Under the pieces are notes generated by a model that saw only the letters and a program-made list of their open reading frames with translations, had not been told where the DNA came from and did no database searches. From the NCBI GenBank assembly GCA_963731265.1, contig CAVSUE010000001.1:800001-864000 (forward strand): 64,000 nucleotides of DNA, given 5' to 3'. This DNA is from an uncultured Verrucomicrobiae bacterium. GTDB taxonomy: Bacteria > Chlamydiota > Chlamydiia > Chlamydiales > Rhabdochlamydiaceae. Each line of letters opens with the position of its first letter. Positions within the stretch are counted from its first letter, which is position 1. The position numbers and the translations under genes were made by a program. This document shows positions 45,868 through 48,521 of the stretch, piece by piece.

Positions 45868-46566
45868 ATGCCGCTATCGCCGCAAAAATTCCGAGAGATT
45901 GTTTTCCAGCTGCTGTACAGCGCAGACTTTGGCGGCTGTGCAGAAGTAGCCGAGATGCTTATGGCCCAGCTGGCTGTGACAAAAAAAGTCCTGCGCGAGG
46001 CGGCTGAAGCTAAGGATAAAATTGTGGAGAAACTGCCGCACATCGACGAGCTTGTGAACAGCCATTCGGAAGAGTATGGTTTCGAAAGAATCCCCCGCGT
46101 CGAGCGGAATGTGATCCGTTTAGGGGCCTACGAGCTTCTTTTTTCAACGGCCGTGCCGCCAAAAGTGGCGATTGCGGAAGCAATTCGCCTGACACGGAAA
46201 TTCGCAACTCCAGAGGCTGCGTCGTTTGTGAACGCGATATTAGACGCCATCTATAAGAAGATAAACCGCGCGCAGGAGAGTTTCGTGGATTTGGACTCTG
46301 CGAGGCAAAGCAAAAACGAGGCTCCATCCATCCAGGGGATGGATTCAGGTCAACTCGGAACCGAAGTTTCGGATGACGGGGACGACCCTTCCCGAATAGG
46401 GATGCAACCATCAAAGGATGGTTGCAGGTCACTGCGGAGTTCAAACCCCGAAGTGATCGGAACCGAGGAGGATCAATTTTGCAAAACCACAGCCAGTCCA
46501 AATTCACAAAACATGACGGAGTGCGGTTCGTCTCATGAGTCAACCATTTCGGCCCAGCCAGTTTGA
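45868..46566 (+). CDS. nusB: NusB with an in-frame repeat-derived insertion near the C-terminus
   Basis: KFREIVFQLLY, VERNVIRLGAYEL, AIAEAIRL..FVNAILD; residues about 133-220 come from the family B element. Confidence 0.92.
   Translation: MPLSPQKFREIVFQLLYSADFGGCAEVAEMLMAQLAVTKKVLREAAEAKDKIVEKLPHIDELVNSHSEEYGFERIPRVERNVIRLGAYELLFSTAVPPKVAIAEAIRLTRKFATPEAASFVNAILDAIYKKINRAQESFVDLDSARQSKNEAPSIQGMDSGQLGTEVSDDGDDPSRIGMQPSKDGCRSLRSSNPEVIGTEEDQFCKTTASPNSQNMTECGSSHESTISAQPV
46264..46528 (+). mobile_element. Coding palindromic element, family B, copy 1
   Basis: Inverted ends AACCGC..GTTTCGTGGATTTGGACT / AGTCCAAATTCACAAAAC..GCGGTT; 261-bp core with no stop in the nusB frame. Confidence 0.88.
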
Positions 46567-47428
46567 AGTCGATAAGCCCTTAAGCCAATTATCCACGTTT
46601 GGGATCGGCGGGCCGGCGCGCTTTTTTACTGAAGTGCAAAAAACCGAAGATCTGCAAGCCGTTTTAAAATATTGCCATGCGCAAAACCTCCCTTTTTTAA
46701 TCGTCGGCAAAGGTTCCAATTGCTTATTCGACGACCGGGGTTTCGATGGTGTTGTGGTCCTCAACAAGATCGTCTTTTGCCAATGGGAGGGGCCGATCGT
46801 CCATGTGGGTGCGGGTTATTCTTTTTCACTTTTGGGGACACAAACAGCCCGCAAAGGGTGGGCGGGCCTCGAATTTGCTTCCGGGATTCCTGGTTCGATT
46901 GGAGGAGCCGTTTACATGAATGCAGGCGCGAGCGGCACGGAAACCTGCGAGGCATTGATCGAAGTTTCTTTTGTCAATGAACAAGGCGATCTTGAAGTTT
47001 TAAAACGGGATCAGACCGCGTTTTCCTACCGCTTTTCGAATTTTCAAAAACGAAGAGGCGCGATCGCCTCGGCGAAGTTCTTGCTCGGCCCATCCGAAGA
47101 GGCTAGAAAAAAGCAGCTCGGGATCGTCGATTATCGCACACGCACGCAGCCCTATTCAGATAAATCGGCCGGCTGCGTTTTTCGCAACCCTGAATCCCAT
47201 TCCGCAGGCGCGCTGATCCAGCAATGCGGCCTCAAAGGAAAACGCATCGGCGGGGCCGAGGTCTCGACGATGCATGCCAACTTTATCGTCAATAAAGACA
47301 ATGCGACTTCCCAAGATGTTTTAGCTCTCGCTGAAGAAGTGAAAAAGACCGTCAAAGAAAAGACGGGAGTCGAGCTTGAAATGGAAGTGCGATACATTCC
47401 AAGAGAAAAAGATGTCCTTTCGTGCTGA
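46535..47428 (+). CDS. murB: UDP-N-acetylmuramate dehydrogenase
   Basis: GIGGPA, GKGSN, GIPGSIGGAVYMNAG, SAGCVFRNP, HANF. Confidence 0.97.
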   Translation: MSQPFRPSQFEVDKPLSQLSTFGIGGPARFFTEVQKTEDLQAVLKYCHAQNLPFLIVGKGSNCLFDDRGFDGVVVLNKIVFCQWEGPIVHVGAGYSFSLLGTQTARKGWAGLEFASGIPGSIGGAVYMNAGASGTETCEALIEVSFVNEQGDLEVLKRDQTAFSYRFSNFQKRRGAIASAKFLLGPSEEARKKQLGIVDYRTRTQPYSDKSAGCVFRNPESHSAGALIQQCGLKGKRIGGAEVSTMHANFIVNKDNATSQDVLALAEEVKKTVKEKTGVELEMEVRYIPREKDVLSC

Positions 47429-48224
47429 TTTGCATTGCCACACCACCTTTAGCGACGGCAGTTTGACGCCAGAGCAACTCTTGCGCCATGCCAAAGAAAT
47501 CGGCCTTACCGGCATTTCGATCACCGACCATGATACCGTCGAGGCTTATTCTCAGGCGCGCCCCCTTGCCAAAGAGCTGGGACTTCTTTTGGGCGTAGGC
47601 GCCGAATTTTCCTGCGTGTTTCAAAAAATGAGCGTCCACCTCCTCGCCTATGATTTTGATCTCGATGCCCCTGAGATCGCCACTCTGTGTGGTTTGCATC
47701 GAAGGCGCCGTACACTGCGCAATAAAACGATCCTCGACAAGTTAAGCCGCCTCGGAATGACAATTAGAGAAGAAGAACTCTACGCCCTCGGCAAGGGGAC
47801 TTTAGGACGTCCGCATATCGCGCATCTCATGATTAAAAAAGGGTACGCCTCATCGATCAAGGACGCTTTCAATCGATTCATCGGCGACGGCAAGCCATGC
47901 TACGATCCCGGAGAAGGAGTTTCTGTTCAAGAGACAATCGACATCATTCATCAAGCCAAAGGAAAAGCCTTCGTCGCCCATCCGCACCTTCTGGAACATG
48001 CCCGCAAAATCAAAGAACTACTCAAATACCCGTTTGATGGGATAGAATGCCATTATGCAAAATTTCTTCCCGAGCAGGAGAAACGTTGGATAAATACCGC
48101 AAAAGAAAAAGGCTGGCTCATCAGCGGCGGGTCCGACTTTCACGGCGCTTCGAAAGAGTACATTCAACTCGGATGCTCTTGGGTGGATGAAGAGACATTT
48201 CACAAGATCTTTCAGCACATATGA
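47412..48224 (+). CDS. PHP-family phosphoesterase (TrpH/YciV-like)
   Basis: DLHCHTTFSDG, ITDHD, GRPHIA, AHP, GGSDFHG. Confidence 0.92.
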   Translation: MSFRADLHCHTTFSDGSLTPEQLLRHAKEIGLTGISITDHDTVEAYSQARPLAKELGLLLGVGAEFSCVFQKMSVHLLAYDFDLDAPEIATLCGLHRRRRTLRNKTILDKLSRLGMTIREEELYALGKGTLGRPHIAHLMIKKGYASSIKDAFNRFIGDGKPCYDPGEGVSVQETIDIIHQAKGKAFVAHPHLLEHARKIKELLKYPFDGIECHYAKFLPEQEKRWINTAKEKGWLISGGSDFHGASKEYIQLGCSWVDEETFHKIFQHI

Positions 48225-48226
48225 TA

Positions 48227-48521
48227 TACCGCGGGCAGGAAGGTTTTGTGAATTTGGACTCCGCGAGGCAAAGCAAAATCGAAGCGCAGCGGCCGAACGA
48301 GAAAGACCATTCCCGAATAGGGCTGCAACCATTAAAGGATGGTTGCAGGTCTCCTCGGAGTTCAAACTCCGAAGAGACTGGAACAGCTGACGAGGCTGCG
48401 GAGACACGCGAAAGTCCGGTGGACTTTCGCTGTGCAAAGCAGGTGAACGAAGTGAACCGGGCTGATCGATTTTGCAAAGCCGCAGCAAGTCCAAATTTAC
48501 AAAACCTGACGGAGCGCGGTA
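48227..48521 (+). mobile_element. Coding palindromic element, family B, copy 2
   Basis: TA-CCGCG..AGGTTTTGTGAATTTGGACT / AGTCCAAATTTACAAAACCT..CGCGG-TA; 291-bp core open in the folC frame. Confidence 0.88.

What the first reader, a model, noticed from the sequence alone, without database searches (positions are those of the whole stretch)
46264..48521. A palindromic element read in frame as the same peptide in NusB and ahead of FolC
Seen: two copies of one inverted-repeat element (46264-46528, 48227-48521), with cores of 261 and 291 bp, both multiples of three, stop-free, and in the same orientation and frame as the host gene. They encode homologous peptides: RAQESFVDLDSARQSK / RGQEGFVNLDSARQSK, SRIGMQPSKDGCRSLRSSN / SRIGLQPLKDGCRSPRSSN, FCKTTASPNSQNMTECG / FCKAAASPNLQNLTERG. 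In nusB the element lies before the stop codon, so full-length NusB must contain it. At folC an ATG overlapping the upstream stop (ATGA, 48221) reads through it. Known: Rickettsia palindromic elements insert in frame into proteins. Inference: this is an analogous coding-repeat family in a chlamydial lineage; I do not recall one being described, but cannot verify that.
Basis: partly seen in the sequence, partly recalled or inferred. Interest (0 to 1): 0.85.

Follow-up and report, generated by a model that had tools for sequence, protein, structure and literature searches.

The report
Protein-coding mobile hairpin element in chlamydial genes
Two copies of a small hairpin-shaped jumping DNA element have landed in frame inside the housekeeping genes nusB and folC of an uncultured chlamydia, and the same family sits inside many other genes of related species, as the palindromic elements of Rickettsia do.

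Summary

[quoted passage not shown] It has roughly 57-nt terminal inverted repeats, a variable interior of hairpin modules and a TA target duplication.

**Evidence for insertion.**
- The sister genome G003 has empty sites at both places.
- In nusB the element adds 267 nt (89 codons), 12 codons before the stop.
- In folC it adds 300 nt (100 codons) directly after the ancestral start codon (ATGA overlap).

**Copies in this genome.**
- There are 14 full and about 9 partial copies.
- All 8 copies of one subfamily are stop-free in the same frame.
- 6 of those 8 are exact in-frame insertions, in nusB, folC, lpxK, priA, pyrB and rnr. All six are absent from G003.

**Copies in relatives.**
- The family was found in 15 of 18 other genomes of the genus.
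- In genome G005, 10 of 15 copies found by DNA search lie in frame in open frames of 235 aa or more, including recC, dnaX and an aminotransferase. None is reversed.

**Limits.**
- Translation through the element is inferred, not shown.
- No matching transposase was found.
- My literature searches found no report for chlamydiae.
- This scan has already noted such elements, probably this same family, in other chlamydial genomes.

**Verdict.** This is a new member of a known kind, the Rickettsia-palindromic-element (RPE)-like coding MITEs.

The parts
45868..46566 (+). nusB reading frame, 232 aa, carrying the element 12 codons before its stop
   Evidence: Pfam NusB covers residues 7-130. Orthologues in 16 other genomes of the genus are 136-153 aa.
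46264..46528 (+). MITE copy 1, 265 nt from terminal repeat to terminal repeat. It encodes residues 133-220 of NusB. With the 2 flanking bases the net insertion is 267 nt.
   Evidence: Empty site in G003. RNA fold -120.9 kcal/mol, z -8.5.
46264..46322 (+). Left terminal arm of copy 1
   Evidence: Repeat family D2 and the family alignment.
46376..46472 (+). Central hairpin modules shared with copy 2
   Evidence: Repeat family D1, 82% identity.
46471..46528 (+). Right terminal arm of copy 1
   Evidence: Repeat family D3, 88% identity.
46535..47428 (+). murB. Its start lies 6 nt after copy 1 and overlaps the 3' tail of nusB.
   Evidence: Pfam FAD_binding_4 and MurB_C.
47412..48224 (+). PHP-domain protein gene. 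Its TGA stop overlaps the folC start (ATGA).
   Evidence: Pfam PHP. Sequence read.
48221..49708 (+). folC reading frame, 495 aa, from the ancestral start codon. The element follows codon 2.
   Evidence: Pfam Mur_ligase_M and Mur_ligase_C. G003 starts at the same ATGA-overlapping ATG.
48227..48521 (+). MITE copy 2, 295 nt from terminal repeat to terminal repeat, 98 stop-free codons. Net difference from G003 is +300 nt.
   Evidence: RNA fold -146.3 kcal/mol, z -10.6. 95% identical to the priA copy.
48227..48282 (+). Left terminal arm of copy 2
   Evidence: Inverted repeat I1.
48466..48521 (+). Right terminal arm of copy 2. It contains GGAG at 48511-48514.
   Evidence: Inverted repeat I1. Sequence read.
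48521..48523 (+). Second in-frame ATG of folC, made of the last base of the element plus two flanking bases. It is a possible alternative start.
   Evidence: Sequence read. That it is used as a start is inference only.

Best explanation
The two repeats are copies of a non-autonomous DNA transposon (MITE) family that belongs to one genus-level lineage of uncultured chlamydiae.

**Anatomy.** Each element has imperfect terminal inverted repeats of about 57 nt and a variable set of internal hairpin modules. It duplicates a TA at its target.

**The coding-competent subfamily.** One subfamily has a length of 3n+1, so the element plus the duplicated TA adds whole codons. It keeps one sense-strand frame free of stops. 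That frame encodes a very hydrophilic peptide of 56-98 residues.

**Why these copies persist.** A copy that lands in that phase at a tolerant spot, such as a protein end, a linker or a loop, lengthens the protein without breaking it and can persist. Copies in other phases or in the reverse orientation are lost.

**In this window.** One copy entered nusB 12 codons before the stop. Another entered folC just after the start codon. Both arrived after the split from the sister species.

**Shown versus inferred.** Shown: the family, the insertion polymorphism, the TA duplication, the frame and orientation bias, and the host genes. Inferred: that ribosomes read through the insert and that the peptide is a largely inert, disordered appendage.
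For: **Family and structure.**
- nhmmer gives 37 matches, which I grouped by eye into 14 full and about 9 partial loci.
- The alignment shows shared terminal repeats and variable interior modules.

**Empty sites in G003.** All six genic copies have an empty site there. The net insertions are:
- nusB +267 nt and folC +300 nt
- lpxK +171 nt
- priA +294 nt
- pyrB +231 nt and rnr +225 nt

Native tails are kept after the insert. NusB ends in the same 12-residue tail in both genomes. PyrB keeps its last five residues. LpxK keeps its last 39 residues at 82% identity.

**TA duplication.** It is clean at lpxK and pyrB: a single TA in the empty site, and a TA on both sides of the element in the filled site.

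**Length and frame.**
- (Length + 2) is divisible by 3 in 12 of 14 full copies. One of the 12 is interrupted by an insertion sequence.
- All 8 subfamily-A copies, with six different lengths, have 0 stops in frame 0.

**Host genes (Pfam).** In PriA the first domain (3'BD) begins at residue 110, right after the insert. The start codons upstream of the insert are conserved in orthologues.

**G005, copies found by DNA search.** 10 of 15 lie in frame in open frames of 235 aa or more. Seven of those ten carry Pfam domains, among them RecC, DnaX and a split Aminotran_4. None lies in a long frame on the opposite strand.

**Wider census.** A profile search found 142 protein clusters among 1.84 billion. 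32 are 250 aa or longer, and 17 of those 32 carry Pfam domains. One of the 17 is an unrelated low-complexity protein.

**Peptide character.** In the 5 copies examined, sense peptides have GRAVY -1.07 to -1.27. The mirror frame is also open in 4 of the 5 but is much more hydrophobic, at -0.14 to -0.56.

**AlphaFold model of NusB.** The core has block-mean pLDDT 84-98 and the insert 45-63, mostly coil.
Against: - There is no expression or protein evidence.
- FolC could start at the ATG at 48521 and leave the insert untranslated.
- No autonomous element with matching terminal repeats was found. The IS630-type elements in G000 have unrelated ends. Those of G001 share only the first 6 bases or so. 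G005 and G012 gave no DDE_3 match at all, although G005 has many near-identical copies.
- The junctions at folC (+300 against an expected 297) and priA (+294 against 297) are off by one codon. The flanks at nusB, rnr and priA are not clean TA pairs.
- Substitutions by codon position do not differ between genic copies (11, 10, 20) and non-genic copies (11, 7, 18) in G005. There is therefore no sign of selection on the peptide itself.
- The low pLDDT of the insert may only reflect the lack of aligned sequences for that stretch.
- Copies are related by descent, so counts of frames and lengths overstate independence.
Confidence: 0.82

Rival explanations
1. The elements are ordinary intergenic MITEs that only appear to be coding. 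They sit at gene borders, the real proteins start after them or end before them, and the long open frames are accidents of a stop-free sequence.
For: - At folC a new ATG at 48521, with GGAG six bases upstream, follows the element.
- In G000 all six genic copies lie close to a gene end.
- Several intergenic copies lie 0-5 nt from a neighbouring start codon.
- The other 8 full copies in G000 are intergenic.
Against: - NusB, PyrB and LpxK keep their native C-terminal tails after the insert, in frame.
- The priA insert lies downstream of conserved start codons and directly before the first domain.
- In G005 the element lies inside RecC (residue 485 of 1040 or more), DnaX (303 of 537) and within the Aminotran_4 domain.
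- A peptidyl-tRNA hydrolase in the public collection is split in the same way.
Confidence: 0.08
2. The encoded peptide has been recruited for a function, for example a shared interaction, localisation or turnover tag. It would then be kept in host proteins by selection rather than merely tolerated.
For: - The terminal parts of the peptide are conserved across copies and species.
- Only the sense orientation is found in genes, although the mirror frame is often open.
Against: - The conserved parts coincide with the terminal repeats, which the DNA needs for transposition.
- Genic and non-genic copies show the same substitution pattern.
- All six insertions here are absent from the sister species. 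The three G001/G013 pairs I tested were not orthologous, so no old retained insertion was found.
- The peptide has no Pfam match.
Confidence: 0.06
3. The insert is removed or skipped during expression, either by RNA processing at the long hairpin or by ribosomes bypassing it, so the mature proteins lack it.
For: - The RNA would form a very stable hairpin.
- From my own recall, not from any call: translational bypass of mobile palindromic inserts is known in yeast mitochondria.
Against: - If the insert were skipped, nothing would keep a stop-free frame and a whole-codon length. Both are kept in 8 of 8 subfamily-A copies.
- No ribozyme or known RNA family was detected.
Confidence: 0.03
4. The segment is ancestral and was deleted in the relatives.
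For: None found.
Against: - 17 other genomes of the genus lack it in nusB.
- The TA duplication is present at the filled sites.
- The sequence is multi-copy and lies in unrelated genes.
Confidence: 0.01

Closest known systems
Rickettsia palindromic elements (RPE; Ogata et al. 2000 and 2002, seen only as summarised in passages of PMC10969869 and the reference list of PMC5896051)
   Same: Both are short palindromic repeats of an obligate intracellular bacterium. Both are found many times in frame inside unrelated housekeeping genes. Both encode a conserved peptide that is added to the host protein.
   Different: The phylum differs (chlamydiae). The present family has long terminal inverted repeats and a demonstrable TA target duplication. 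Its modular interior gives lengths from 169 to 355 nt, whereas the review gives about 150 bp for RPEs.
Correia elements (NEMIS) of Neisseria and other TA-flanked bacterial MITEs of the IS630/Tc1-mariner type (features recalled, and named in earlier scan note e1-4160050)
   Same: Both have terminal inverted repeats, a TA duplication, dozens of copies, are co-transcribed with neighbouring genes and form hairpins in RNA.
   Different: Those elements are mainly intergenic and are not known for systematic in-frame residence in genes. No sequence similarity was tested. No IS630-type element with matching ends was found here.
QMITE1 and QMITE2 of Coxiella burnetii (PMC5896051, passages read)
   Same: Both are MITEs of an intracellular bacterium that overlap the 3' ends of functional genes. 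They occasionally give in-frame C-terminal extensions, as in EnhC of the Dugway strain.
   Different: In Coxiella the overlaps with functional genes are short and lie at 3' ends. Mid-gene in-frame insertions are reported there only in hypothetical proteins. Here 57-100 codons are inserted in conserved enzymes, including inside domains. The direct repeats differ too: variable 2-3 nt or 7-11 nt there, TA here.

Membership tests
Bacterial MITE (non-autonomous transposon) | Small size with no transposase gene | tested here: met
   Elements are 169-355 nt. The peptide has no Pfam match.
Bacterial MITE (non-autonomous transposon) | Terminal inverted repeats | tested here: met
   57-nt arms, 75% complementary. 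The arms are conserved across copies.
Bacterial MITE (non-autonomous transposon) | Target-site duplication | tested here: met
   The TA is single in the empty sites of G003 and duplicated around the element at lpxK and pyrB. By my reading of the printed flanks, TA lies to the left of 9 and to the right of 10 of 15 G005 copies. The flanks at nusB, priA and rnr have decayed.
Bacterial MITE (non-autonomous transposon) | Multiple dispersed copies with presence/absence polymorphism at orthologous sites | tested here: met
   About 23 loci in the genome. 6 of 6 genic copies are absent from G003.
Bacterial MITE (non-autonomous transposon) | A cognate autonomous insertion sequence with the same ends | tested here: not met
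   I looked for DDE_3 transposases in G000, G001, G002, G005, G012 and G013. I compared the ends of the G000 and G001 elements only. The G000 ends are unrelated. The G001 ends match over about 6 bases only. Other transposase families were not searched.
IS630/Tc1-mariner-derived MITE | TA target duplication | tested here: met
IS630/Tc1-mariner-derived MITE | Terminal repeats derived from an IS630-family element | tested here: not met
Rickettsia palindromic elements | In-frame residence in many unrelated protein genes with a conserved encoded peptide | tested here: met
Rickettsia palindromic elements | Sequence relationship to RPE-1 to RPE-10, and occurrence in Rickettsia | not testable with these tools
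The host here is a chlamydia, so I claim an analogue and not a member.

The most novel reading that the evidence does not exclude
The coding-competent subfamily may be adapted, at the level of the element itself, to live inside genes of a compact genome. Four features fit this reading:

- Its length is held at 3n+1, so that with the TA duplication it always adds whole codons.
- Its sense strand encodes a hydrophilic, disordered peptide.
- Only that orientation survives in genes, although the mirror frame is often open.
- Its right end carries a GGAG that can rebuild a ribosome-binding site and, with the flank, a start codon, as at folC.

If this holds, protein-compatible transposons arose independently in chlamydiae and in Rickettsia, and would be a recurrent strategy of mobile DNA in obligate intracellular bacteria.
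Probability: 0.35. Interest if true: 0.75.

Novelty: new member of a known kind. Interest (0 to 1): 0.62.

Why it matters
A 2024 review of prokaryotic MITEs (PMC10969869, passages read) singles out the Rickettsia palindromic elements as an unusually frequent case of in-frame insertion. It says a similar mechanism may exist elsewhere.

This window belongs to a second, unrelated intracellular lineage in which the same thing happens at high frequency:
- 6 of 8 coding-competent copies in this genome are inside genes.
- 10 of 15 copies in a relative are inside genes.

The transposon features are clearer here than the review describes for RPEs, because the terminal repeats, the TA duplication and the empty sites in a sister species are all visible.

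Two uses follow:
- **Research.** The recent, datable insertions in essential genes (priA, nusB, lpxK, dnaX, recC) form a natural experiment on how proteins tolerate inserted peptides and how new protein segments arise.
- **Annotation.** Gene callers and orthology tools will report odd extensions, and domain models will be split by the insert.

Tried and rejected
- **Rfam scan of 45800-48800.** It returned only a chance-level CRISPR-repeat match elsewhere.
- **Autonomous partner.** IS630-type elements were found, but their ends do not match the element.
- **Old insertions shared by two species.** Three G001/G013 pairs with similar frame lengths were not orthologous. Only the element itself matched.
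- **Reciprocal check.** The host gene of a G003 copy has no orthologue in G000.
- **Codon-position test for selection on the peptide.** Genic and non-genic copies showed no difference. The samples were small: 8 and 4 copies, after I dropped three copies with swapped or truncated ends.
- **Strand asymmetry of RNA folding as a cause of the orientation bias.** Sense and antisense RNAs fold about equally well: -146.3 against -139.0, and -120.9 against -118.1 kcal/mol.
- **Promoter and terminator scan.** Nothing exceeded the shuffles: 1 against 1.7, and 6 against 4.2.
- **Right end as a supplier of ribosome-binding sites to downstream genes.** In G000, 6 of 7 intergenic copies have a co-oriented frame of 100 aa or more starting within 120 nt of the right end, against 4 of 7 at the left end. 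In G005 the counts are 3 of 5 and 1 of 5. This is only suggestive.
- **Sequencing runs.** No RNA holder was listed, only small shares of the words were held, and no reads were laid.
- **Alignment A1.** It misplaced the element peptides onto the NusB core and was replaced by A2.
- **My own early reconstructions.** Before I looked at G003 I rebuilt the pre-insertion sites at nusB, folC and priA from the TA rule alone. These were wrong and were replaced by the empty-site comparisons.
- **Open-frame lengths in search tables.** Those given can refer to only part of an element. One G001 case of 444 aa was not open across the whole element. I therefore do not use them as counts.
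Full report
**1. The observation**

The stretch 45600-49200 was read directly. Two related segments lie at 46264-46528 and 48227-48521 on the + strand.

The repeat finder pairs them in three blocks:
- a left arm of 63 nt at 86% identity
- a centre of 97 nt at 82%
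- a right arm of 57 nt at 88%

In the second copy it also reports inverted arms of 57 nt that are 75% complementary.

The ORF list shows both segments lying stop-free inside long frames on the same strand. The first is in 45868-46566 (232 aa) and the second in 48221-49708 (495 aa).

Pfam names these NusB (residues 7-130) and a Mur-ligase/FolC-type protein. Between them lie murB and a PHP-domain gene.

As RNA the two segments fold into one long terminal stem with several internal hairpins. The energies are -120.9 and -146.3 kcal/mol, with z-scores of -8.5 and -10.6 against dinucleotide shuffles.

**2. It is a repeat family**

The window is G000:C1:800001-864000 in a genome of 2.34 Mb in two contigs. 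BLASTN and an nhmmer profile built from the two copies find 37 matches. I grouped these by eye into 14 full-length and about 9 partial loci.

The alignment of the 14 full copies shows:
- conserved ends that begin TAC and finish GTA
- a TA flanking most copies on each side
- an interior built from different combinations of hairpin modules, giving lengths from 169 to 355 nt

There are two groups. Eight copies form subfamily A: at C1 50960, 116205, 213895, 509311, 517191, 846265, 848227 and 1235143. All eight have no stop in frame 0 of the sense strand. The other six have one or more stops in that frame.

One of those six, at 718472, is itself interrupted by an IS630-type insertion sequence.

**3. 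Empty sites prove insertion, in frame**

The closest relative held, G003, has NusB 96% identical. One of its contigs spans nusB-murB-PHP-folC. It aligns with the window at 93-95% identity, apart from two gaps that fall exactly at the two elements.

*nusB.*
- G003 reads on from the codons for K-K-I into a 12-residue tail and the stop.
- The window has the same tail, with one residue different, but 267 nt (89 codons) lie in between.

*folC.*
- G003 starts at an ATG that overlaps the TGA of the PHP gene.
- The window keeps this ATG at 48221, and 300 nt (100 codons) follow before the conserved N-terminus resumes.

The same comparison was made for the four other subfamily-A copies that lie in long frames:

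| Gene | Net insertion | Position |
|---|---|---|
| lpxK | +171 nt | about 40 codons before the stop; the last 39 residues are conserved after it |
| priA | +294 nt | between codons 10 and 11, downstream of start codons conserved in five relatives, directly before the 3'BD domain that Pfam places from residue 110 |
| pyrB | +231 nt | six codons before the stop |
| rnr | +225 nt | in the lysine-rich N-terminus |

All six differences are multiples of three. Four equal the element length plus 2. The other two (folC and priA) are one codon off.

The insertions are also missing from G001, G002, G004 and G005 for nusB, lpxK, priA, pyrB and rnr. NusB open frames are 138-188 aa in 16 other genomes of the genus (G013 has nusB in three broken pieces), against 233 aa stop-to-stop (232-aa protein) here.

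At lpxK and pyrB the empty site has one TA and the filled site has a TA on each side of the element. That is a target duplication of TA.

**4. Frame, length and orientation**

(Length + 2) is divisible by 3 in 12 of 14 full copies. This includes all eight A copies, which have six different lengths: 169, 217, 223, 229, 265 and 295 nt. Because the copies share ancestry, this is not a clean probability.

In the five A copies examined the sense peptides are strongly hydrophilic. GRAVY is -1.07 to -1.27, and 70-76% of residues are polar, charged, Gly or Pro.

The element is nearly palindromic, so the mirror frame on the other strand is also open in 4 of those 5 copies. That frame would encode a much more hydrophobic, Cys- and Trp-containing peptide, with GRAVY -0.14 to -0.56.

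No genic copy uses the reverse orientation. The count is 0 of 6 here and 0 of 10 in G005.

**5. Relatives**

BLASTN with copy 2 finds matches in:
- 15 of 18 other genomes of the genus
- 3 of 6 genomes of other genera of the family
- 0 of 16 genomes of other families of the order

For a census that does not depend on the peptide, I searched G001 and G005 with the DNA of the short lpxK copy.

*G005.*
- All 15 full-length matches were fetched.
- 10 lie in the sense frame inside open frames of 235 aa or more.
- Three lie in short frames or have that frame closed. Two lie just upstream of a gene start, in another frame.
- None lies in a long frame on the opposite strand.

Pfam confirms seven of the ten hosts:
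- RecC, with domains on both sides of the insert at residues 485-541
- DnaX, with the insert at 303-359
- a class IV aminotransferase whose domain is split at profile position 56/57
- a RecD-like helicase
- an ABC ATPase
- a glycosyltransferase
- an MptE-like protein

*G001.* Fifteen copies of a high-copy variant have no open sense frame across the element, so that variant does not sit translated in genes.

Other relatives show internal or terminal in-frame copies in an FtsX-type permease, an isochorismate synthase, TsaE, LptB and others. I read those identities from the translations and did not confirm all of them with Pfam.

A profile of 17 element peptides was searched against 1.84 billion cluster representatives:
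- 142 clusters matched at E 0.001 or better, and 61 at 1e-10 or better.
- 32 are 250 aa or longer.
- 17 of those 32 have Pfam domains. Among them are DapB, ThiF, Pth (split), LigD primase-polymerase, UvrD, a histidine kinase and an outer-membrane protein.
- One of the 17 is an unrelated low-complexity eukaryotic protein.

**6. What moves it**

The TA duplication and the terminal repeats point to mobilisation in trans by a transposase that duplicates TA. The IS630/Tc1-mariner family does this (established knowledge, recalled).

DDE_3 transposases occur in G000 (5 matches), G001 (16), G002 (6) and G013 (1). None was found in G005 or G012.

I compared element ends only for G000 and G001:
- The G000 element has unrelated ends.
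- The G001 element begins with the same six bases or so and then diverges.

The partner is therefore unidentified.

**7. Expression**

No RNA holder was listed for the region, so translation is inferred from three things:
- the maintained open frame
- the whole-codon lengths
- the fact that PriA, LpxK, RecC, DnaX and others would be truncated or split otherwise

An AlphaFold model of NusB was built on 17 genus sequences. The NusB core has block-mean pLDDT 84-98. The insert has 45-63 and is mostly coil beyond residue 147. The insert has no aligned homologues in that alignment, so this is weak evidence for disorder.

For folC, the element's right end and flank create a second in-frame ATG at 48521, with GGAG six bases upstream. 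Which start is used cannot be told.

**8. Identity of the organism**

The genome has five matches to the ATP/ADP translocase family PF03219, one of them a weak partial match and one interrupted by a TAG. The same search gives none in 14 control genomes. One relative's protein that carries the peptide is named Rhabdochlamydiaceae bacterium by its source.

Three records found by a pattern scan are titled Verrucomicrobia or uncultured bacterium. That fits loosely labelled members of the same superphylum.

**9. Comparison with what is known**

The behaviour matches the Rickettsia palindromic elements as described in passages of the 2024 review PMC10969869. The review calls their frequency of in-frame insertion unusual and suggests the same may occur elsewhere.

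Coxiella QMITEs (PMC5896051, passages) mostly overlap the 3' ends of functional genes by a few bases.

Structurally the element is a TA-flanked MITE like the Correia elements. That comparison is recalled and was also named by scan note e1-4160050.

Searches of the held library returned no report of such elements in chlamydiae:
- MITE terms with Chlamydiae
- "Rickettsia palindromic element" with Chlamydiae
- MITE, chlamydia and IS630
- chlamydiae, palindromic and in-frame insertion (0 papers)
- a looser Rhabdochlamydiaceae search, in which none of the 15 listed papers held the word Rhabdochlamydiaceae
- Rhabdochlamydia with "miniature inverted" (0 papers)

One chlamydial genome paper (PMC13229535, passages) discusses insertion sequences only. 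Subscription journals and supplements were not covered.

**10. Earlier notes of this scan**

Several unchecked notes describe in-frame palindromic elements in other chlamydial genomes. One of them, e1-2152888, is a 182-nt insert in folC of another genome. It shares 5 of 76 short words with the G005 variant, so it probably belongs to the same family.

The scan has therefore met this kind, and probably this family, before on other DNA. My scores rest on the tests above.

**11. Verdict**

This is a new, apparently unpublished family of protein-coding MITEs in a chlamydial lineage, analogous to RPEs. It has clear transposon hallmarks and recent, datable insertions into essential genes. I class it as a new member of a known kind.

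Noticed in passing
G000:C1:718472-719962 (outside the window): An IS630-type insertion sequence of about 1.23 kb has inserted into the left arm of one MITE copy. A second copy of this insertion sequence, 97% identical, lies at C1:394874-396106. Its transposase frame is split into two pieces of 124 and 248 aa.
   Followed up: partly
G000:C1 about 1234820-1234983, upstream of rnr (outside the window): A different palindromic segment of about 164 nt is present in G000 where G003 aligns only in part and in inverted pieces. It is probably a second MITE-like family.
   Followed up: no
L123 and L121 (G005 copies): In one copy the left arm has been replaced by the mirror image of the right arm. In another copy the reverse has happened. 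The two arm variants can therefore swap, for instance by repair across the hairpin. The sense frame stays open in L123.
   Followed up: no
L107 (G005, dnaX): Directly after the in-frame element the protein repeats the first eight or so residues of the element peptide. This suggests a partial second copy or a duplicated end.
   Followed up: no
G000:C1:349893, 518712 and 1557162; L109 (G005): Several intergenic copies end 1-5 nt before the ATG of a co-oriented downstream frame. The GGAG or GGGAG of the element's right end then lies at ribosome-binding-site distance from that ATG.
   Followed up: partly
G001: This genome combines about 15 identical IS630-family copies with at least 18 copies of a MITE variant that has no sense frame open across the element. 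This looks like a recent burst of a variant that is not translated inside genes.
   Followed up: partly
window 46535 and 46564-46566: The nusB stop lies 32 nt inside murB, in both G000 and G003. The nusB tail after the insert is therefore constrained by the murB start region.
   Followed up: partly
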